In this document: in pieces, positions 2,614 to 57,389 of the stretch | How the letters are laid out: each line of letters opens with the position of its first letter | How positions within the stretch are numbered: position 1 is the first letter of the stretch | Assembly (NCBI GenBank): GCA_937907535.1 | Contig: CALCID010000119.1 | Coordinates: 69,243 to 133,242, forward strand | DNA: 64,000 nt | Direction: 5' to 3' | Origin: an uncultured bacterium | GTDB lineage: Bacteria; Gemmatimonadota; Gemmatimonadetes; Longimicrobiales; RSA9 | Program-made: the position numbers and the translations under genes | Notes under the pieces: generated by a model | The model's input: the letters and a program-made list of their open reading frames with translations, nothing else | Database searches by the model: none | What the model was told of the DNA's origin: nothing

Positions 2614-3521
2614 TCAGGAACCTCCTCGTTGCTGCGGGCGCCGCCGTCGGCGCCACGCGCGCGTTTCGACCGTGCCCGCTTGCGGCGCAACGGTCTCCAG
2701 GGCCGCTGCCGCGGCGACAGATCCTCGTAGTCGATGACCCTCCGCTCTTCGTCCGCCTCGTCCACCTGGTCGCTGTCGAGCAGCAGGTCGCGCTCCGGCA
2801 GGCGTTCGAAGAAGCCGAGCACGAACGCCTTGACCACGCCGTACGCCACGTACGCCAGGGCGGCCGGGAAGAGGAAGATCGCCGGGACCGTGAAAATGGC
2901 CACGATGGCCGCGATCAGCGCGGCCAGGGTCAGGATCCCCTTGAGCGTGCGGAACCCGAACTTCGGCATGACCGGGTACAGCACGTGGCTGACCATGAGC
3001 GCGCTGAGCAGGATCATCAGCGTGGTCATGAGGACCGGCCAGGGGAACCCGGTCAGGTACGTCTGGAAGAACGGGGTCTGGCTGAACGGATAGAAGGTCG
3101 CGAGCGTGACGCCCGCCGCGGGCGAAGGCAGGCCGTGGAACGCCACCTTGGCGTGCCCGGCCTGTTCGATGTTGAAGCGGGCGAGGCGCACGACGACGCC
3201 GGTGATGTAGACGAACGCCGCGATCCAGCTCCACGTCCCGTCGGCCAGGAACAGGAAGTACATGATCAGGGCCGGCGCCACGCCGAAGCTGATGGCGTCC
3301 ACCAGGGAGTCGAGCTCGGCCCCGAACCGCGTGCCGGTCTGGGTGACCCGGGCCACGCGCCCGTCGAGGAGGTCGAGGGCGCTGGCGATCACCACGAGCC
3401 ACGCGGCGGTGTTGTACTGCCCCCGGGCCGCGGACACCACGGCCCACACCCCGAAGAAGAGGTTCCCGAGCGTCAGCGCGCTCGGCAGGATGATCACGCC
3501 GCGCTGGAGCCGGGTGCTCAC
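2610..3521 (-). CDS. pssA: CDP-diacylglycerol--serine O-phosphatidyltransferase (CDP-alcohol phosphatidyltransferase family)
   Basis: Motif ALDLLDGRVARVTQTGTRFGAELDSLVDAISFGVAP matches D-x2-DG-x2-AR-x8-G-x3-D-x3-D, and there are multiple TM helices. I chose GTG 3521 (GGAGG 6 nt upstream), although the ORF stays open to 3638. The stop overlaps the purS GTG (GTGA). Confidence 0.8.
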   Translation of the reverse strand: MSTRLQRGVIILPSALTLGNLFFGVWAVVSAARGQYNTAAWLVVIASALDLLDGRVARVTQTGTRFGAELDSLVDAISFGVAPALIMYFLFLADGTWSWIAAFVYITGVVVRLARFNIEQAGHAKVAFHGLPSPAAGVTLATFYPFSQTPFFQTYLTGFPWPVLMTTLMILLSALMVSHVLYPVMPKFGFRTLKGILTLAALIAAIVAIFTVPAIFLFPAALAYVAYGVVKAFVLGFFERLPERDLLLDSDQVDEADEERRVIDYEDLSPRQRPWRPLRRKRARSKRARGADGGARSNEEVPE

Positions 3522-12296: not shown

Positions 12297-12303
12297 TGCT
12301 GAC

Positions 12304-12336
12304 GCCGCGGCGGCACGGTCCGTCGGCCGCCGCGGC
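12304..12336 (+). terminator. Perfect 11-bp GC hairpin 8 nt after the barrel-protein stop
   Basis: GCCGCGGCGGC (12304-12314), an 11-nt loop, then GCCGCCGCGGC (12326-12336), followed by a pyrimidine-rich tail tccctccctctg. There is no canonical U-tract. Confidence 0.5.
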
Positions 12337-12411
12337 TCCCTCCCTCTGCAACCCTTTCCGCCGTTCCTGTGTCCCACGGTCGGAAGTGGCCGGGTCGAGG
12401 ATTCCCCATGA

Positions 12412-12690
12412 AGACGACGTTCGGATGAACGGTCGCTGGTCGCCCGGGGGCTCGCGGGGGATGACGTCGCCGCCCGCGGAGCCGCGGGAGCAGCCGATCT
12501 TCGCGTACGCGCACGGGGAGACGCGTCGCTCGACCAACTGATCCGTAACGCGCGCGGGGACGCGGACCCGGTGCTCCCCAAGCGCGCGATATCCCGGCTC
12601 GGCCAATCGAACAACCCACGCGCCGCCGAGGCCCTGCTCGAACGGATCCGCCGCGATCGACCGGGCAGGGCCCGGCCCTGCTCGCCGTCA
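12412..12690 (+). pseudogene. HEAT-repeat gene fragment (no start, frameshifted, no own stop)
   Basis: The frame opened at 12412 reads ..LDQLIRNARGDADPVLPKRAISRLGQSNNPRAAEALLERIRRD. The neighbouring frame reads ..EQPIFAYAHGETRR then stops at 12541. Both resemble consecutive HEAT/PBS-lyase units. Confidence 0.35.
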
Positions 12691-16691: not shown

Positions 16692-17096
16692 CGTCGTGCG
16701 ATCTTAGAGTCCAGGGCCCGGGGGTGGTGCCGCGGGTGCGGCGATCGCCGGGGCGGACGCCCCGGATTGGCTCCCCTCGACCGGTGGCGGTTCTTCCACG
16801 CCGATCCACGATCCGTCCACGCCGGGGTGTTGCCGTGTCCAGCCGGCAGCGGCCGCGGGCCATTCGCCGGGCCGCCCCGTCCGACCGCCCCACCTTCTGC
16901 CGGGCCCGAAGGGCCGGAGCCGGTCCACCGGGGCGCGACTCGCGGCACAGCGTGCCGGCGTCGGCGACCGGGCTTTCGCGGCCGGTCGGCCCTCACCCTC
17001 GCCGGGTACCGGCCGTTCCGGCCGGCCCGGGGCGGGACGCGGGCGAAGAAGAACCGAAAGACAAGGTACCCGAAAGGGAACCGAAGCGCAAGAGGG

Positions 17097-43489: not shown

Positions 43490-44116
43490 GCTGCTCGCCC
43501 CGTCGCCGGACCGTGGTGTGGAATCGTCGGTGCGTGGAGCCTTTCGGGGGTGCACCCGGACGTGCCACGGACCCGCGCGTCGGGCTGATCGCATCGCAGA
43601 GGGGCGGATGGCCGGGCGCAGGCCGGCTTCCGGGCGGACGGTCCGTGCGGCCACGGCCGCCCGCGCCTTCGGCGATGGCGGGCGCCCGCGGCGCGGCCGC
43701 TTCGCCGCGGGCCGTCCGGGATCCTCGGTCCCGAAACCGGGAAGCCGGATGCAGCAACCATCCCGGTCCGGAACGCCCCGCACACCGATTCCGTGTTCGA
43801 GATCGAGGGCGGCGCACCCCTGATCCCGTTCCTGACCGGCGCGCACACGGCCGTCCTGGCCGCGTGGTCGTGGTTCCGCAAACGGCGCGGGAGCCAGGAG
43901 GGGTGAGCCCGGCGGTCGGACTCGCCGGCGCCTGACGCCCCCGGCCGGGCTGGACCTCGCCCTCGCGGGCGGCACCCGGCGTCCGGCCCGCACGGGCGGC
44001 TCGTGCAGCCGTGTCTGTGCGCATGCCCGTACACGTTCCGCGCACGGGCGCCCGCTAGCACGGGCGTCCCCCCGTTCGTTTGACTCGGCCCGCCCGCTTT
44101 CGCCATCTTTCTCTCC

Positions 44117-47920: not shown

Positions 47921-48441
47921 CCCATCCGACGTCCCGGCACGCCGACCGACACCACCCCATCCCTTCCCACGGCCGACGGGCCGGCGCGCCGGCATCGTGC
48001 GCTGACGCGAGCGTGTCCTGCCGGGATGCCCCGCCCGGAGTCTCCGTCGGGTGGCCACGCGTACGCCTTGTACGCGGCCGACCAGCCCGCCAGCGCTGCC
48101 GGCCGCACCTCGCCCGGCGGGGCGTCCCCGACCACCGCCCCATCCGCCGCGTTCGGCTCCTGCCCGTCGCCATCCCGCGGATCGCCGCCGTGTCGGACCC
48201 TCCGGCCCGGTCCTGCCAGGGGGCGCCTCCGGGTCCACCCGGAGCCACTCCCCCGCCCGACAGACCGTCCATGGCCCTACCGGAGTCGGCGTTGCCTGGC
48301 ATCCCGGCGCCGCCGGCTCTGTCCGACGGCCTGCCCCGGGTTTGCCCGCCCCGGGGAGGGAAGTGGCTCGATCGCGTAAGTGATTGTGGGTATACGACTT
48401 GCCTGACTTACTTGGTGAACGCCGAGTGATTCGGAGGCACC

Positions 48442-48960
48442 ATGAGAGTCGCAAGCGCCCGATTCCTGACTCTGTTGGTCAGCGCATGGGTATCGGTTGC
48501 GGCGGCGGCGGAGCTTGCGGTGGACCGCGCCGCCCACGAGCTTGCCGATGCCGCGCCGATGCGGATCAGGGTGAGTCTGTCCCAACGCCGGTTGACCGTG
48601 CTCGAGGGCGGGAAGGCCGTCAAGTCGTACCCGATCGCGGTGGGCCGGCCGAGCAACCCCACGCCGACGGGGAGCTACCGGACGGGGAGGATCGTCTGGA
48701 ATCCGGGGTGGGTGCCGCCGCCCCGGGACTGGGCGAAGAACATGAAGCCGCGCGCCCCGGGCGACCCCCGGAACCCGATGCAGGGCGTGAAGATCTACTT
48801 TCGGGAGCCATGGTATTACATTCATGGCACCAACGACCCGGCGTCCATCGGCAAGGCCGCGTCTCGCGGATGCATCCGCATGCGGCCGTCGGACGCCATC
48901 GACCTGGCACGACGGATCCAGCGGAACGGGGGAAGCGTGCCGCTCGTGATCGTGCACTGA
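48442..48960 (+). CDS. L,D-transpeptidase (YkuD domain), secreted
   Basis: Signal peptide; YPIAVGRPSNPTPTG..YIHGTNDPASIGKAASRGCIRM (His/Cys catalytic motif). Confidence 0.88.
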   Translation: MRVASARFLTLLVSAWVSVAAAAELAVDRAAHELADAAPMRIRVSLSQRRLTVLEGGKAVKSYPIAVGRPSNPTPTGSYRTGRIVWNPGWVPPPRDWAKNMKPRAPGDPRNPMQGVKIYFREPWYYIHGTNDPASIGKAASRGCIRMRPSDAIDLARRIQRNGGSVPLVIVH

Positions 48961-49478: not shown

Positions 49479-49490
49479 AGCCGCCGGCGG

Positions 49491-49528
49491 GCCGTGCCGC
49501 GCTGTTTCGGCCCGGCACGCGGCACGGC
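49491..49528 (+). terminator. Perfect 11-bp GC hairpin 13 nt after the holin-like gene
   Basis: GCCGTGCCGCG (49491-49501), a 16-nt loop, then CGCGGCACGGC (49518-49528). Confidence 0.45.
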
Positions 49529-49636
49529 TCCTGGACGCCGCTTCGGAGCCCGGCCCGCCGCACGGCCTCGGGTGGAGGGATCCGGTGCGCGGGCGTGGCC
49601 ATCCCGGATCCCCGGCTGCCGAGGCGTCGGTCGCCC

Positions 49637-50272
49637 TTGTGCCTGTCCGCGCTTCAATCCGGGTTCGGGGGCGACGTCATCCGGGCTCCCTTCGCGCTGC
49701 TCCTGGCCGCGTTCCTCTCCTTCGCCGCCCTCCCGGCGGTGGCGCAGGTGGCCGGGCGGGACCCGGCCGCGTGGCCGGCCCGGCGCTCCCGGCCGCGCCG
49801 GCCAGGCCGCCCATCGAGGCGATCCGCGCCCGGGTCGACTCCCTGGCTTCGCCGCCCGTGCACGCAGCGCCCGGGGCGGCCCGGCAGATCGTCGAACGGC
49901 GCGCCGCGGTCGAGCGCCTGGCGGCCGGCTCGGTCCCGGACAACGCGATCGTCCGCGGCGCCACCCCGCCTGCCTGCGCGATCCCGGCCGCTATGCCGCG
50001 GCCCGGACCGCCCCGCCCTCGACCTGCCCAGCCTCGTCCTCCAGGGCGGCAGGGATCACCAGCTCACGCCGGACGCGGACTTCCGCCGGTGGCGGAAAGC
50101 CTTCGATGCCCGGCCGAACGCCACCCTCGTCGAGCTCCCGTCCCTCGACCACCTCCTCATGCCGGGGGAAGTTGCGGCCACGCCCCGGCGTACGGGACTC
50201 CCGGATACGTCGACCCCCGGGGCGATCGAAGCCCCGGCTCGCTTCCTTGCCCGGCCCCCGGATCGCCGATAA
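49637..50272 (+). pseudogene. Decayed secreted alpha/beta-hydrolase gene (internal deletion plus several frameshifts)
   Basis: A signal-peptide-like [24 protein letters not shown] is present. Recognisable C-terminal hydrolase segments are spread over all three plus frames: [34 protein letters not shown]; [18 protein letters not shown]; [42 protein letters not shown]; [12 protein letters not shown]; [11 protein letters not shown]. No GxSxG nucleophile region is present. Confidence 0.5.
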
Positions 50273-52555: not shown

Positions 52556-52604
52556 CCCGATGCGCTCGCGCCCGCCGTCCACGGTCGTACACGTACTCGT
52601 ACTC

Positions 52605-52653
52605 GTACACGTGCTCGTACTCGTTCCACGTGGACGTGCACGAGCACGTGTAC
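52605..52653. repeat. Perfect 14-bp-arm inverted repeat with an inner 10-bp palindrome, embedded in hexamer-phased (CGWRYA-like) tracts
   Basis: GTACACGTGCTCGT (52605-52618) and ACGAGCACGTGTAC (52640-52653). The loop contains TCCACGTGGA. The flank is gtactcgtactcgtac. It contains the 14-mer CGTGCACGAGCACG (52635-52648), which also occurs in the 55.6 kb array. Confidence 0.85.
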
Positions 52654-52691
52654 GGCTCACCCCCGTACCCCTCCTCGCAATCTGAGAAGCC

Positions 52692-54628: not shown

Positions 54629-55407
54629 GCGGTTTCGAACGAATCCTGTACGACGCCGCGGACGGCGTGGCGAGGATCACGCTGAACCGGCCCGACAAGC
54701 GGAATGCGCTCGACGACCGCACGGTCGTGGAGCTGAAGGCCGCCCTGGAGCGGGCGGAGACGGATCCGGCTGTCCGGGTGCTCCTGCTCCGGGGCGCGGG
54801 CAAGGATTTCTGCGCCGGCGCGGACCTCGCCCAGCTCGAGCGGATCGCCGCCGGCGCGGGCGCCATGGAGAACCTGGACGACGCGGCCGGGCTCGGCGAC
54901 CTCTTCATCCGCATGCGTCGCGCCCGCAAGCCGATCGTGGCCGCGGTGCACGGGCACGTGTTCGCGGGGGGCGCCGGGCTCGCCACGGCGTGCGACCTCG
55001 TCGTCGCGCGGGAGGACGCCGCCTTCGGCTATCCGGAAGTGCACCTGGGGTTCGTGCCGGCCATGGTCATGGCGCTGCTCCGTCGGGCCGTGGGCGAGAA
55101 GGTCGCGTTCGAGCTGGTGGCCCGGGGAGACCGGATCAGCGCGTCCGAAGCGCTGCGGCTCGGGCTGGTGAACCGGGTTTTCCCCGTCGAGAGCTTCGAT
55201 GCGGACGCCGAGGCGTACGCCCGGGAGCTGGCCTCCCGCTCGCCCTCGGCCGTGCGGCTCATCAAGCGGCTCCTCTACGGCATGGACGGCGCCTCCTTCG
55301 AGGAAGCCATCGCCCGGGGCGCCGAGGTCAACGTCATCGCCCGCATGACCGAAGACACGCGCCGGGGCGTGGCCCGGTTCCTCGAGCAGAGGCAGCGCCG
55401 GGTATGA
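54625..55407 (+). CDS. Enoyl-CoA hydratase/isomerase (crotonase) family protein
   Basis: From ATG 54625 (ATGA overlap): ITLNRPDKRNAL..LLRGAGKDFCAGADL..AAVHGHVFAGGAGLATACDL..GYPEVHLG. Confidence 0.88.
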   Translation: MSGFERILYDAADGVARITLNRPDKRNALDDRTVVELKAALERAETDPAVRVLLLRGAGKDFCAGADLAQLERIAAGAGAMENLDDAAGLGDLFIRMRRARKPIVAAVHGHVFAGGAGLATACDLVVAREDAAFGYPEVHLGFVPAMVMALLRRAVGEKVAFELVARGDRISASEALRLGLVNRVFPVESFDADAEAYARELASRSPSAVRLIKRLLYGMDGASFEEAIARGAEVNVIARMTEDTRRGVARFLEQRQRRV

Positions 55408-55595
55408 GCCCGTTCCGGCCTTCCCGGGAGCGGCGGGGCGAAGACCGCTTCCTGCATTGGAAAGTCCTCATCTTCTTCGTCGGCGCGGCGGTCGGCCTGA
55501 TCGGGATGGCCCGGGGGGACGACCGGATCGTGATCACCGCCGCCGCCATCCTCGCGTTGGGTGTGCTTCTACGCATTGCGAGCCGGAGGGAGTAG
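55404..55595 (+). CDS. 63-aa two-helix membrane micro-protein
   Basis: ATG 55404 overlaps the hydratase stop (ATGA). MSPFRPSRERRGEDRFLHWKVLIFFVGAAVGLIGMARGDDRIVITAAAILALGVLLRIASRRE. The TAG stop at 55593-55595 abuts the tandem array. Confidence 0.45.
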   Translation: MSPFRPSRERRGEDRFLHWKVLIFFVGAAVGLIGMARGDDRIVITAAAILALGVLLRIASRRE

Positions 55596-55975
55596 GGGGT
55601 AGCCTTCGCGGCAAGGCAACCTTACCGGGTCGTGCACGAGCACGAGCGCGAGCACGGGGTAGCCTTCGCGGCAAGGCAACCTTACCGGGTCGTGCACGAG
55701 CACGAGCGCGAGCACGGGGTAGCCTTCGCGGCAAGGCAACCTTACCGGGTCGTGCACGAGCACGAGCACGAGCACGGGGCTGCCTTCGTGGCAGGGCTAC
55801 CTTGCCGGGTCGTGCACGAGCACGAGCACGGGGTAGCCTTCGTGGCAGGGCTACCTTGCCGGGTCGTGCACGAGCACGAGCACGGGGGCGGACTTCTCGG
55901 CAAGGCGGCCTTTCCGGGGCGTGCACGAGCTCGGGGCGACCTTCGCGGCGAGGCAACCTTATCGGCCCGACCGGA
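55596..55975. repeat. Tandem repeat array: 3 x 60 bp, 2 x 54 bp, then 2 degenerate units
   Basis: Unit: GGGGTAGCCTTCGCGGCAAGGCAACCTTACCGGGTCGTGCACGAGCACGAGCGCGAGCAC. Units 55596-55655 and 55656-55715 are identical. Unit 55716-55775 has 1 substitution. Units 55776-55829 and 55830-55883 lack one hexamer and carry changes in the hairpin-forming part. Decayed copies run to about 55975. Confidence 0.97.
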
Positions 55976-56120
55976 CCACTGGAGGCCTCGCTTCCAGCCC
56001 CGAGCGATCGCTCCACAGCGCACCCGCCTCGCGCACGCGAAACCGGCGCCTGCAGCCCAGGCATCCCCCGTCCCGTACTCGTTTTCGTCCCCGAACCGGC
56101 TACGCGGCCCCGCCGCAAAT

Positions 56121-56157
56121 GCAACCCCGTACTCGTGCTCGACCCGACAAGGGTTGC
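56121..56157. repeat. Hairpin carrying an inverted copy of the hexamer tract
   Basis: GCAACCC (56121-56127) and GGGTTGC (56151-56157). The loop contains CTCGTGCTCG (56132-56141), the reverse complement of the array's CGAGCACGAG. A related tract, cgtactcgttttcg, lies at 56074-56087. Confidence 0.6.
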
Positions 56158-56210
56158 GGACGAGCCGGCGCCGCGGCTACGCGATGGGCCGCGAGCCCGC
56201 GGCCTCGCGG

Positions 56211-57389
56211 TTACGGCGCGTTGGTCCCCGTGACCGGTATGGCCACCTCCACGGTGGTTCCGGCGCCCGGTGTGCTCCGCACCCACAGGCGGCCCGCCAG
56301 GAGTCCGGCGCGTTCCTCCATCCCGAAGAGGCCCAGCCCCCGCTGCTGGTCCGACAAGACCTCCTGCACGGAGAAACCTTTGCCGTTGTCGGTGATGGTC
56401 GCGGTCACGCGGTCGGCCCGGTGCCGGATCCGGACCGTGGCCCGCGTCGCCTCCGCGTGCCGGACGACGTTCGAGAGCGCCTCCTGGATGATTCGATAGA
56501 TCGCGAGCTCGGCCTCGGGATGGAGCAGGCCGTCCACCGAGTCCGCATCCACTTCCACCTCGAGCCCCGTGGTCTCGGCGAGCGACCGCGCGTGTGACTC
56601 CACGGCCGCCACGAGGCCCAGCTCGTCGAGCGCGGGGGGGCGCAGCCCCCGGGCGAACCGCCGCACCCCCTCCAGCACCTCGCTCACCTGGGTCCGAACC
56701 TCCTCCAGCACGGACTCCCGCGCGCTCGGATCCGAGAGGCCGCGCGCCACCCGCAGCCGGATCAACAGCGCGGCCAGGGCCTGGGCCGTCTCGTCGTGCA
56801 GGTCCCGGGCGATGCGCTTCCGTTCCGCCTCCTGGGCCTGGAGCGCCCGCGCCGCCACGTACCGGAGCCGCTCCCGCGTGGCGGCCAACCCGTCCAGCAT
56901 GGCGTTGATCGTCCGTGTCAGGCGCTCGAACTCCGAGTCCGCGAGCGGCGAGATCGGCGCCCGGACGTCCAGCTCGCCCTCCCGGATCCGCGCCACCGCC
57001 GCCTCCAGCATGTACAGCGGCTTCAGCGCCAGCTTGATGATGGCGGCGTTGATCATGACGGTGAGCAGCGCGCCCGCCAGCGCGAGAAGGGCGATGGTGT
57101 CGATGGTCACGCCGAGCTCCGACGAGCGCATGAGCGAGGCCGTGATCGCCGCGCTGGCGATCAGGCCCCCGACCACCAGGAACGTGTTCGCAATGAGAAT
57201 CTTGTAGAAGAGAGGAACGCGCAGCAGCGTGCTCACGATCCCTTTGCGCGGCCACCGGCTGCGCCCTTCCAGGCGCTGCCGCTGACCCGCGCGGTCGGAC
57301 TCCCGCCTGTCCGCTGGCGCTGCCCGCAACGTGACGCCGACCGGCGTGCCAGACTTCGTTTCCACCGAGACCCCCGGGTGTGGATCCAA
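56211..57389 (-). CDS. Sensor histidine kinase, HisKA_3 (NarX/LiaS-like) with HAMP
   Basis: Two TM helices separated by a very short loop, a HAMP-like segment, ERKRIARDLHDETAQALAAL (H-box), and an ATPase domain ..GLGLFGMEERAGLLAGRLWVRSTPGAGTTVEV. Confidence 0.88.
   Translation of the reverse strand: MDPHPGVSVETKSGTPVGVTLRAAPADRRESDRAGQRQRLEGRSRWPRKGIVSTLLRVPLFYKILIANTFLVVGGLIASAAITASLMRSSELGVTIDTIALLALAGALLTVMINAAIIKLALKPLYMLEAAVARIREGELDVRAPISPLADSEFERLTRTINAMLDGLAATRERLRYVAARALQAQEAERKRIARDLHDETAQALAALLIRLRVARGLSDPSARESVLEEVRTQVSEVLEGVRRFARGLRPPALDELGLVAAVESHARSLAETTGLEVEVDADSVDGLLHPEAELAIYRIIQEALSNVVRHAEATRATVRIRHRADRVTATITDNGKGFSVQEVLSDQQRGLGLFGMEERAGLLAGRLWVRSTPGAGTTVEVAIPVTGTNAP

What the first reader, a model, noticed from the sequence alone, without database searches (positions are those of the whole stretch)
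55596..55975. Near-perfect 60/54-bp tandem array built on (CACGAG)n tracts, with ambiguous coding status
Copy structure:
- Two identical 60-bp copies, then a third with one substitution (55768).
- Two 54-bp copies missing exactly one hexamer, then two decaying copies.

Each unit pairs a hairpin-capable half with GTCGTGCACGAGCACGAGCGCGAGCAC. In the 60-bp units the hairpin half is GGTAGCCTT-cgcggc-AAGGCAACC, or alternatively GGCAAGG-caa-CCTTACC. In the last 54-bp unit it changes to the perfect GGTAGCC-N10-GGCTACC. All five intact unit lengths are multiples of 3.

One plus-strand frame encodes a His/Glu-rich 20-mer, GVAFAARQPYRVVHEHEREH, which looks metal-binding. My hand count gives that frame about 80% G/C at third positions, but it uses several rare-looking codons (gta, gca, caa, cct, agg). 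A minus-strand frame encoding VLALVLVHDPVRLPCREGYP scores similarly.

The array fills the convergent gap between the cassette and a histidine kinase plus CopD-like pair. It is not a CRISPR array, because there are no unique spacers. I do not recognise it as a known repeat family.
Basis: seen in the sequence. Interest (0 to 1): 0.7.

Follow-up and report, generated by a model that had tools for sequence, protein, structure and literature searches.

The report
Dispersed non-coding intergenic tandem repeat
The array is real, but it is one copy of a non-coding repeat family scattered through the intergenic regions of an uncultured Longimicrobiales compost bacterium, similar in kind to REP or MIRU elements; it is not a His-rich metal-binding gene and not a one-off oddity.

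Summary
There are seven head-to-tail units on the + strand at 55596-55975, measuring 60, 60, 60, 54, 55, 48 and 43 nt.

Each unit is a 36-nt core (GGGG..CCTTCGCGGC..CCGGGTCG) followed by a hexanucleotide tract (CACGAG)n.

- **Not unique.** Short-read contigs from compost, soil and manure metagenomes pile up on it at 20-220x single-copy depth, with many different flanks. One metagenome pattern scan returned 27 loci. Across all 315 kb held I count 162 units in 36 non-duplicate arrays, all of them intergenic and in either orientation relative to neighbouring genes.
- **Not coding.** Codon log-odds is about 0 in the HEHEH frame, against 0.40±0.10 for real genes. 17 of 75 unit spacings break the frame. 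A search of 5.8 billion proteins gave five spurious ORFs, at least two of which visibly switch frame between units.
- **No RNA structure support.** There is no compensatory covariation, single cores fold no better than shuffles, and Rfam gives nothing above threshold.
- **Polymorphic.** Tract length differs by 1 or 4 hexamers between samples at the same locus. A syntenic Longimicrobiales MAG has 5 units instead of 7.
- **IS target.** Ends of an IS3-like element abut family units at 5 of 6 junctions, as reported for REP elements.

Verdict: a new lineage-specific family of a known kind of bacterial interspersed repeat. Interest is modest.

The parts
55596..55655 (+). Unit 1 (60 nt): 36-nt core plus tract GTCGTG-CACGAG-CACGAG-CGCGAG-CAC. 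It starts directly after the TAG stop of the upstream ORF.
   Evidence: 57.8 bits to the family HMM
55656..55715 (+). Unit 2 (60 nt), identical to unit 1
55716..55775 (+). Unit 3 (60 nt), with one substitution at 55768
55776..55829 (+). Unit 4 (54 nt), one hexamer fewer, core variant GGGGCTGCCTTCGTGGCAGGGCTACCTTGCC
55830..55884 (+). Unit 5 (54/55 nt), core with the perfect GGTAGCC..GGCTACC arms
55885..55932 (+). Unit 6 (48 nt), decayed, with a short tract
   Evidence: 35.4 bits
55933..55975 (+). Unit 7 (about 43 nt), decayed, core only
   Evidence: 25.8 bits
56075..56128 (-). Degenerate family unit on the minus strand: GGGGTTGCATTTGCGGCGGGGCCGCGTAGCCGGTTCGGGGACGAAAACGAGTA
   Evidence: nhmmer E=1.5e-4; blastn to family loci down to E=1e-12
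56129..56172 (-). Partial family unit on the minus strand (3' core plus tract ..CCTTGTCGGGTCGAGCACGAGTAC), starting 38 nt after the kinase stop codon
52587..52655 (.). Relic of the hexamer tracts only. Two tracts in inverted orientation (GTACTCGT.. / ..CACGAGCACGTGTAC) form a 16-bp hairpin in the 136-nt gap upstream of atuA.
55404..55595 (+). 63-aa predicted membrane ORF, last gene of the atuA / enoyl-CoA hydratase operon. Its TAG stop abuts unit 1 and it is in frame with the 'HEHEREH' reading.
   Evidence: Positive coding score; also called as a gene in the syntenic MAG; no Pfam hit
56211..57389 (-). HAMP / HisKA_3 / HATPase_c sensor histidine kinase, the convergent neighbour

Best explanation
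The array is one locus of a lineage-specific, non-coding, interspersed tandem-repeat family in a Longimicrobiales (Gemmatimonadota) bacterium from compost.

**Anatomy.** The unit is a 36-nt core (consensus GGGGCAGCCTTCGCGGCAGGGCTACCTTTCCGGGTCG) plus a hexanucleotide microsatellite (AG CACGAG CACGAG CAC..). Typical lengths are therefore 36+6n (48/54/60/66/72 nt). Units stand in head-to-tail arrays of 1-7 at many intergenic sites.

**Shown here:**
- The family is dispersed and strictly intergenic.
- It has no fixed orientation relative to genes.
- It is not translated like a gene.
- It changes length at two scales: whole units and single hexamers. This is the behaviour expected of replication slippage or unequal recombination.
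- Arrays tend to be freshest at the core-first (5') end and decayed at the other end.
- The array is present in RNA-seq assemblies contiguous with the upstream operon.
- Units are preferred insertion sites of an IS3-like element.

**Inferred:**
- Genome-wide spread needs some trans-acting mobilisation or recombination system that recognises the sharply conserved core blocks (GGGG / CCTTCG / GGC / CCGGGTCG). That system was not identified.
- At this locus the array is carried as a 3' untranslated tail of the atuA / enoyl-CoA-hydratase operon. It may blunt read-through in a convergent gap that has no canonical terminator. I regard this as a side effect rather than its reason for existing.
For: **Dispersal**
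- Logan contigs of four DNA runs stack at up to 17,953 versus 81 single-copy depth on the tract (about 220x), and about 20-50x on the cores. Many different loose-end flanks are seen, some on contigs at the same depth as the genome.
- One metagenome scan gave 27 loci, carrying 132 units.
- With a family HMM there are 162 units in 36 non-duplicate arrays within 315 kb.

**Context**
- All arrays are intergenic. The upstream gene is co-oriented in 11 and divergent in 19. The downstream gene is co-oriented in 9 and opposed in 8.
- About 12 arrays begin within -19 to +4 nt of a co-oriented gene's stop codon.

**Non-coding**
- Per-codon log-odds are 0.00, -0.18 and -0.75 (+ frames) and -0.49, -0.74 and 0.08 (- frames; the last contains stop codons), against 0.40±0.10 for 61 genes.
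- GC3 is 0.79 against 0.903±0.04.
- 17 of 75 spacings are not multiples of 3.
- Only 5 weak protein hits were found. In at least two of them (P0001, P0002) the repeat peptide is read in different frames within one ORF.

**Polymorphism**
- L122 versus L130 differ by exactly 4 hexamers, and L124 versus L139 by 1 hexamer, with identical flanks.
- The syntenic NCBI MAG contig DATGPJ010000046.1 has identical flanks but 5 units, lacking units 1-2.

**Polarity:** the first unit scores higher than the last in 16 of 21 arrays, Wilcoxon p=0.035.

**Transcription:** RNA-seq contigs at depth 13-16 run from the operon into unit 1. Junction unitigs are at 21-35, distal units at 3-5, and there is nothing from about 55877 to 56196.

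**IS targeting:** 5 of 6 independent IS-end junctions lie inside family units. The IS OrfA fragment hits HTH_Tnp_1, though below Pfam's cut-off.
Against: - No mobilising gene (RAYT or other) was seen, and I hold only a few percent of any one genome.
- The copy-number difference from the MAG could in principle be an assembler collapse, although that MAG lacks the CGCGAG variant altogether.
- Contig k-mer depth is a poor proxy for both copy number and expression, and other related species in the samples may contribute to the pile-up.
- Core conservation is strongly position-dependent (near-invariant blocks next to free positions). That hints at a selected recognition function my 'mostly selfish/neutral' reading does not explain.
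- Variable positions cluster at one codon phase (permutation p=0.053), which I cannot fully dismiss.
Confidence: 0.85

Rival explanations
1. It encodes a His/Glu-rich repeat protein, either a stand-alone ORF from GTG 55632 or a TAG read-through extension of the 63-aa ORF, that binds metal and is functionally linked to the CopD-like / histidine kinase pair.
For: - The +0 frame is open and gives (GVAFAARQPYRVVHEHEREH)n.
- It is in frame with the upstream ORF.
- The five intact units are multiples of 3.
- 58 of 75 family spacings are multiples of 3.
Against: - The multiples of 3 follow trivially from a 36+6n unit.
- 17 of 75 spacings break the frame, and here units 6-7 are already read in another frame.
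- Codon log-odds is 0.00 against 0.40±0.10 in genes, and GC3 is 0.79 against 0.90.
- The ORF would run 321 aa antisense through the kinase gene.
- There is no Pfam hit.
- Only 5 weak hits were found among 5.8 billion proteins, at least two of which switch frame within the ORF.
- Family arrays sit beside unrelated genes in both orientations, including divergent promoter regions.
Confidence: 0.02
2. It is a selected cis-acting RNA element. The array is transcribed as the operon's 3' UTR, and its stem-loops act as a terminator or exonuclease barrier for the two convergent transcription units, as shown for some REP/BIME arrays in E. coli.
For: - Both converging genes are followed by units in their own orientation.
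- About 12 family arrays start 0-4 nt after a co-oriented stop codon.
- The gap has no canonical terminator.
- Three-unit stretches fold with z=-6.2 (+) and -5.5 (-).
- RNA-seq depth falls from 13-21 at the proximal end to 3-5 distally and then to 0.
Against: - There is no compensatory covariation; the top mutual-information pairs are adjacent subfamily signatures.
- Single cores fold no better than shuffles, with mean z +0.09 and -0.20.
- About half of the arrays lie upstream of genes or antisense to them.
- There is no Rfam match above threshold.
- The RNA evidence is unstranded contig depth.
Confidence: 0.2
3. It is a true REP/BIME system. The core is a REP hairpin with a GTAG head, mobilised by a REP-associated tyrosine transposase (RAYT) encoded elsewhere in the genome.
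For: - The window copies begin GGGGTAGCC and contain an imperfect palindrome.
- The family is high-copy, extragenic and clustered.
- It is targeted by an IS, as REPs are (PMC1525189).
Against: - The GT[AG]G head is present in only 8 of 90 unique cores; GCAA and GCAG dominate.
- Units are arrayed head-to-tail, not in the alternating orientation that defines BIMEs or REPINs (PMC2817692).
- The palindrome is weak and not maintained by covariation.
- No RAYT was seen among the genes next to arrays that I read.
Confidence: 0.12
4. The array is an assembly artefact, produced by erroneous expansion of a short repeat.
For: - Short-read contigs all break inside the array.
- The window carries an extra C at 56065 relative to every short-read data set that covers that position.
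- The unitig for the unit 1/2 junction has 0.5-1.9x rather than 2x single-copy depth.
Against: - All distinct junctions (1>2, 3>4, 4>5, 5>6) exist as exact unitigs in independent runs from several studies.
- An independent MAG has the same array with 5 units.
- Dozens of comparable arrays exist at other loci.
Confidence: 0.02

Closest known systems
MIRU / VNTR minisatellites of Mycobacterium tuberculosis (own knowledge: Supply et al. 1997, 2000)
   Same: - Direct head-to-tail arrays of 40-100-bp units.
- Dispersed over many intergenic loci.
- Arrays abut the ends of flanking genes.
- Unit number is polymorphic between strains.
   Different: - There is no sequence relation.
- MIRUs are oriented with the operon and carry small ORFs coupled to the flanking genes. 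Here orientation is free and frames are not kept.
- This unit contains its own hexanucleotide microsatellite.
REP / BIME elements of Proteobacteria, with their RAYT transposases (PMC2817692, PMC3333891)
   Same: - Short GC-rich imperfect palindrome.
- Order of 100 copies per genome, extragenic and clustered.
- Often just 3' of genes.
- Preferred targets of specific IS elements (PMC1525189).
   Different: - No conserved GT[AG]G head.
- Direct rather than alternating orientation.
- The palindrome is not supported statistically.
- No RAYT identified.
- Different phylum (Gemmatimonadota).
Modular mosaic repeats: pneumococcal BOX (boxA-boxB(n)-boxC) and neisserial NIME / dRS3 arrays (own knowledge)
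   Same: Composite intergenic elements in which a short module is tandemly iterated a variable number of times. They also serve as landing sites for mobile elements.
   Different: There are no distinct terminal modules here, and the variable part is a 6-bp microsatellite inside every unit. There is no sequence similarity.
radC RNA motif, Rfam RF01754
   Same: The minus strand of units 3-5 aligns end to end with the model, through a GGYAGCC..GGCURCC hairpin.
   Different: The score is 25.6 bits against a gathering score of 40 (E about 0.007-0.01 for under 1 kb searched), with several non-canonical pairs. I treat it as a chance resemblance between GC-rich hairpins.

Membership tests
REP/BIME (RAYT-associated) | Conserved 5' GT[AG]G head on each element | tested here: not met
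   GTAG is present in only 8 of 90 unique cores and GTGG in none. GCAA occurs in 28 and GCAG in 25. The feature definition is taken from PMC2817692.
REP/BIME (RAYT-associated) | Elements occur as inverted pairs, or regularly spaced in alternating orientation | tested here: not met
   Units within arrays are all head-to-tail. Opposite-strand arrays occur only as separate neighbouring arrays.
REP/BIME (RAYT-associated) | Stable imperfect palindrome (stem-loop) | tested here: inconclusive
   The consensus can fold at -16.6 kcal/mol. However, the 88 cores have mean z of +0.09 and -0.20 against shuffles, and there is no compensatory covariation.
REP/BIME (RAYT-associated) | A RAYT (Y1/HUH transposase) gene in the genome, usually flanked by REPs | not testable with these tools
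   Only about 64 kb of the source genome is held, plus scattered metagenome loci. Genes flanked by arrays that I read are not transposases.
REP/BIME (RAYT-associated) | High copy number and extragenic location | tested here: met
MIRU-type interspersed minisatellite (VNTR) | Direct tandem arrays of 40-100-bp units at multiple intergenic loci | tested here: met
   36 non-duplicate arrays of 1-7 units with 48-72-nt spacing, all intergenic
MIRU-type interspersed minisatellite (VNTR) | Copy number varies between strains at the same locus | tested here: met
   7 versus 5 units at this locus. Differences of 4 hexamers and 1 hexamer, and 5 versus 3 units, at other loci. Caveat: these come from short-read assemblies.
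MIRU-type interspersed minisatellite (VNTR) | Same orientation as flanking genes, with short ORFs overlapping their stop/start codons | tested here: not met
   Both orientations occur. Frames are broken in 17 of 75 spacings.
CRISPR array | Identical repeats separated by unique spacers of similar length | tested here: not met
   The 15-27-nt 'spacers' are all the same (CACGAG)n tract.
MITE | Terminal inverted repeats and target-site duplication | tested here: not met
   Arrays begin with the core and end in a tract or a decayed unit. No terminal inverted repeat or common flanking motif was seen at 36 boundaries. The TSD test is limited by the fuzzy 3' ends.
Repeat protein (His/Glu-rich) | Genic codon usage, maintained reading frame, homologues conserved at the protein level | tested here: not met
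Rfam RNA families (4227 models) | Score at or above the gathering threshold | tested here: not met
   There are 0 hits in the window at the gathering threshold. The best sub-threshold hit is radC, at 25.6 bits against 40.
Simple-sequence (microsatellite) contingency tract | Short-unit tract whose repeat number varies between closely related genomes | tested here: met
   Hexamer number differs by 4 and by 1 with identical flanks. Within this array n=3 in units 1-3 and n=2 in units 4-5. No link to phase-variable expression was tested.

The most novel reading that the evidence does not exclude
The family is not mere junk but a recognised DNA module. The sharply bimodal conservation of the core consists of near-invariant GGGG / CCTTCG / GGC / CCGGGTCG blocks about 10 bp apart, separated by freely varying positions. 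On this reading the pattern is the footprint of a dedicated Gemmatimonadota protein, for example a domesticated transposase or a nucleoid protein. That protein would spread or use the units, while the built-in hexanucleotide microsatellite gives each site a rapidly tunable length. This would be a REP-like system of independent origin, with a hypervariable component and stable 3'-UTR-derived RNA fragments.
Probability: 0.15. Interest if true: 0.55.

Novelty: new member of a known kind. Interest (0 to 1): 0.3.

Why it matters
Practical consequences:
- It explains why short-read assemblies of these abundant compost Longimicrobiales fragment at many intergenic sites.
- It warns annotators against calling 'HEHEH' or 'RARAR' ORFs there.
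- It offers ready-made VNTR and microsatellite markers for tracking strains across compost, soil and manure metagenomes.

Biological point: it adds a well-delimited interspersed repeat family, with IS targeting, from a phylum (Gemmatimonadota) where I found none described. That is a data point for whether REP-like systems arise repeatedly. It does not open a long-standing question by itself.

Tried and rejected
1. **Genome-contig scan.** I used a 20-nt degenerate tract pattern.
2. **Long-read test of copy number.** No Nanopore or PacBio run is listed for this stretch.
3. **REP/RAYT lead from the GTAG head of the window copies.** Rejected as membership, because the head is not conserved across the family.
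4. **Hairpin and RNA structure.** The mutual-information and pair-count analyses show only subfamily signatures. Single cores are not more stable than shuffles.
5. **Codon-phase signal.** Variable core positions cluster at positions ≡2 mod 3, and 40-56% of codon changes are synonymous in two frames. The permutation p is only 0.053, and those frames have the worst codon usage (-0.75 and -0.74), so I do not read it as coding.
6. **Other weak window matches** (59597, 31318, 15367 and others). They lie in ordinary coding sequence.
7. **Literature.** String searches for the tract, and searches for Gemmatimonadota REP elements, found nothing relevant.
8. **Protein look-ups.** P0004 and P0019 were not on record.
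9. **First two home-made gene callers.** They missed the hydratase gene. Only the codon log-odds caller was used for context statistics.

Full report
**Observation**

The sequence at 55596-55975 is exactly as described. It holds seven head-to-tail units of 60, 60, 60, 54, 55, 48 and 43 nt. Units 1 and 2 are identical, unit 3 differs at 55768, units 4-5 lack one hexamer, and units 6-7 are decayed. Tandem Repeats Finder gives period 60, 5.8 copies, score 453. The repeat finder lists seven copies of the 33-nt core. The tract word CACGAGCACGAG (up to 1 mismatch) occurs 17 times in the window against 0.97 expected.

A profile of the seven units also finds two degenerate units on the minus strand at 56075-56128 and 56129-56172. 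Blastn against family members from elsewhere confirms them. A tract-only relic at about 52587-52655 forms a 16-bp hairpin.

**Setting**

Upstream on the + strand lie a carboxyltransferase, AtuA, an AtuA-ferredoxin-like protein, an enoyl-CoA hydratase and a 63-aa ORF. That ORF's TAG stop (55593-55595) is immediately followed by unit 1.

Downstream on the - strand lie a HAMP/HisKA_3 histidine kinase (56211-57389) and a DUF4149/CopD-like protein. The 615-nt convergent gap therefore holds a + array behind the + operon and two - units behind the - kinase. It contains no sigma-70-like promoter and no intrinsic-terminator-like site.

**It is a dispersed family**

I laid the contigs of four independent DNA metagenomes (compost, soil, manure) on 55300-56300. 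Flanks sit at single-copy depth (for example 81 in X1). The tract bin reaches 17,953, and the core bins are 20-50 times single copy. There are 133-213 contigs laid per run, many different loose-end flanks, and some of these contigs have the same depth as the genome. Short-read contigs break inside the array.

A scan of JGI/ENA metagenome contigs with CCTTNCCGGGTCGWGCRCGAGCRCGAG returned 27 loci, carrying 132 units. With a family HMM there are 162 units in 36 non-duplicate arrays of 1-7 units in the 315 kb I hold. The consensus is GGGGCAGCCTTCGCGGCAGGGCTACCTTTCCGGGTCGAGCACGAGCACGAGCAC.

Start-to-start spacings are dominated by 60, 48, 66, 54 and 72, which is 36+6n. The only similarity between those loci and the window is the repeat itself.

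**Context of arrays**

I used a codon log-odds gene caller that recovers all the genes expected around this locus. No array lies inside a gene. Relative to array orientation, the upstream gene is co-oriented in 11 cases and divergent in 19. The downstream gene is co-oriented in 9 and opposed in 8. There is therefore no rule tying orientation to transcription.

The core-first edge usually abuts a gene. In about 12 arrays it lies within -19 to +4 nt of a co-oriented gene's stop codon, as it does here; elsewhere it lies a few tens of nt from a divergent start codon. The tract-last side is often followed by long, G-rich non-coding DNA. No common flanking motif, terminal inverted repeat or obvious target duplication was seen.

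**Coding status**

- The 'HEHEREH' frame is in frame with the 63-aa ORF. Its per-codon log-odds is 0.00, and the other five frames score -0.75 to +0.08. The 61 window genes average 0.40±0.10, with a minimum of 0.13.
- Its GC3 is 0.79, against 0.903±0.04 for genes.
- Units 6-7 are already read in a different frame, and the ORF would run 321 aa antisense through the kinase.
- Across the family, 17 of 75 spacings are not multiples of three. The remainder follow trivially from 36+6n.
- There is no Pfam hit.
- A search of 5.8 billion proteins with the repeat peptide gave five weak hits of 94-126 aa. In at least two of them, P0001 and P0002, the ORF passes from the 'GATFAAGLPCRVEHEH' reading into the 'GNLRGRAT' reading. 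That is what a DNA-level repeat with frame-shifting spacings produces.
- Variable core positions are enriched at one codon phase (permutation p=0.053). The frames concerned have the worst codon usage, so I do not interpret this as coding.

**Structure**

Three-unit stretches fold better than shuffles on both strands (z -6.2 and -5.5). The 88 gap-free unique cores do not (mean z +0.09 and -0.20).

The two candidate hairpins show wobble or mismatch variation but no compensatory changes. The strongest mutual-information pairs are adjacent-position subfamily signatures, CG>TC at positions 14/15 and A..C>G..G at 24/26.

Rfam has nothing at gathering thresholds in the window or in 18 family loci apart from two tRNAs. 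The best sub-threshold match is radC, at 25.6 bits against 40. Conservation along the core is strongly uneven. GGGG, CCTTCG, GGC and CCGGGTCG are near-invariant, while positions 7, 17-19, 23 and 29 are nearly free. This remains unexplained.

**Instability**

The same locus in different samples differs by exactly four hexamers (L122 vs L130) or one hexamer (L124 vs L139), with identical flanks. It can also differ in unit content.

The kinase belongs to a 90%-identity cluster that includes HLU24832.1, a 'Longimicrobiales bacterium' protein (lineage). That MAG's contig, DATGPJ010000046.1, is syntenic and essentially identical across the gap. It has five units, lacks window units 1-2, and has one fewer C at 56065.

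The unitig for the unit 1/2 junction, which occurs twice in the window, has only 0.5-1.9x single-copy depth across nine runs. This suggests a variable number of leading units. Within arrays the first unit matches the family model better than the last in 16 of 21 cases (Wilcoxon p=0.035). That agrees with the decay seen here.

**Transcription**

Runs labelled metatranscriptomic hold the region. In two RNA-seq runs with patchy, RNA-like coverage, the operon contig (depth 13-16) runs into unit 1. Junction unitigs are at 21-35 and the unit 4/5 unitigs at 3-5. Nothing is assembled from about 55877 to 56196, and the kinase is at about 5 (a similar picture in X24).

This fits co-transcription of the array as a 3' tail with attenuation inside it. 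However, contig depth is unstranded and crude. In one further run (X31), a 165-nt contig (56017-56182, depth 16.8) covers the minus-strand units while the adjacent kinase 3' part is absent.

**IS targeting**

Two related termini, TGAACCGCCCTGGGTTTGCCGGAGG and TGAACCGCACCGGGTTTATCGGAGACC, occur at six independent junctions in the family loci. The first is followed by an ORF whose start matches HTH_Tnp_1 below the Pfam cut-off (E=0.009). I take the element to be IS3-like.

Five of the six junctions lie inside family units: four within cores, three of them directly after an RCCT(T) arm, and one in a tract. Arrays cover only a few percent of those loci, so this is far from random. The same junctions appear as loose ends in the Logan contigs. 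REP elements are known IS targets (PMC1525189).

**Comparison with known kinds**

The element behaves like MIRU-type interspersed minisatellites in four respects: direct arrays, intergenic location, multiple loci and strain-variable copy number. It resembles REP/BIMEs in being high-copy, extragenic, often at gene 3' ends and IS-targeted.

It fails defining features of each:
- no conserved GT[AG]G head (8 of 90 cores);
- no alternating orientation (PMC2817692);
- no orientation coupling or maintained small ORFs as in MIRUs;
- no unique spacers (CRISPR);
- no terminal inverted repeats (MITE).

I therefore file it as a new, lineage-specific family of bacterial interspersed repeats. Its unusual trait is a hexanucleotide microsatellite built into every unit.

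**Limits**

- The one genome-contig scan was wasted on a pattern that was too short, so distribution across Gemmatimonadota reference genomes is untested.
- No long reads were available.
- Whether a RAYT-like or other mobilising gene exists cannot be judged from the fraction of genome held.

Noticed in passing
window 56065: The window has a run of five C (ggcatcccccgtc). Every short-read data set that covers this position, and the syntenic NCBI MAG, have four. This is either a homopolymer error, suggesting the window comes from a long-read assembly, or a strain difference.
   Followed up: partly
window 52587-52655: Hexamer tracts without cores, in inverted orientation, lie in the 136-nt gap between the carboxyltransferase gene and atuA: GTACACGTACTCGTACTCGTACACGTGCTCGTACTCGT ... 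ACGTGCACGAGCACGTGTAC. They fold into a 16-bp hairpin (MFE of the 136-nt gap -48.2 kcal/mol, z=-2.3).
   Followed up: partly
L124:1-167 and 3293-3437; L128:1-167; L129:13496-13662; L126:8806-8932; L145:1-127: Ends of an IS3-like insertion sequence (TGAACCGC[C/A]C.GGGTTT...). One end is followed by an HTH_Tnp_1-like OrfA start. The ends abut or interrupt family units at 5 of 6 junctions, mostly after an RCCT(T) arm of the core. In L124 the right-end terminus is duplicated in tandem.
   Followed up: partly
L125:870-1220, L133:262-594, L130:2221-2571: A 110-116-aa 23S_rRNA_IVP four-helix-bundle protein gene (Pfam E=1.5e-17). In L125 and L133 it sits between a + array upstream and a - array downstream, so inverted arrays flank it. 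L125 and L133 share about 93-94% identical flanks and look like the same locus. L130 was not compared and shows an array on only one side within the contig.
   Followed up: partly
L120:2990-3700, L121:8906-9000, L127:1288-1550, L128:4082-4950, L135:2631-3350, L142:2952-3330: Several arrays are followed on their own strand by hundreds of bases of non-coding, extremely G-rich and C-poor DNA (up to 55% G, 14-19% C) before the next gene. There are no Rfam hits there, and the nature of these stretches is unknown.
   Followed up: no
window 56017-56182: In one RNA-seq run (X31), a 165-nt contig at depth 16.8 covers the spacer and the minus-strand units, while the adjacent 3' part of the kinase gene has no coverage. 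It could be a stable 3'-UTR-derived fragment or simply patchy assembly.
   Followed up: no
window 43490-44116, 47921-48519, 49479-49990, 16692-17096, 12297-12687: These are other unusually long gaps (390-630 nt) between called genes in this compact, 71% GC window. They contain no family units and were not examined.
   Followed up: no
window 55754-55894 (-): Sub-threshold, full-length Rfam match to the radC RNA motif (25.6 bits, gathering score 40), driven by the GGUAGCC..GGCUACC hairpin of units 4-5. I judge it a chance match.
   Followed up: yes
window 55634-55884: The tract hexamer CACGAG is, from my own knowledge, the recognition sequence of BssSI-type restriction enzymes, and GTGCAC is that of ApaLI. 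Arrays therefore concentrate such sites. No link to a restriction-modification system was tested.
   Followed up: no
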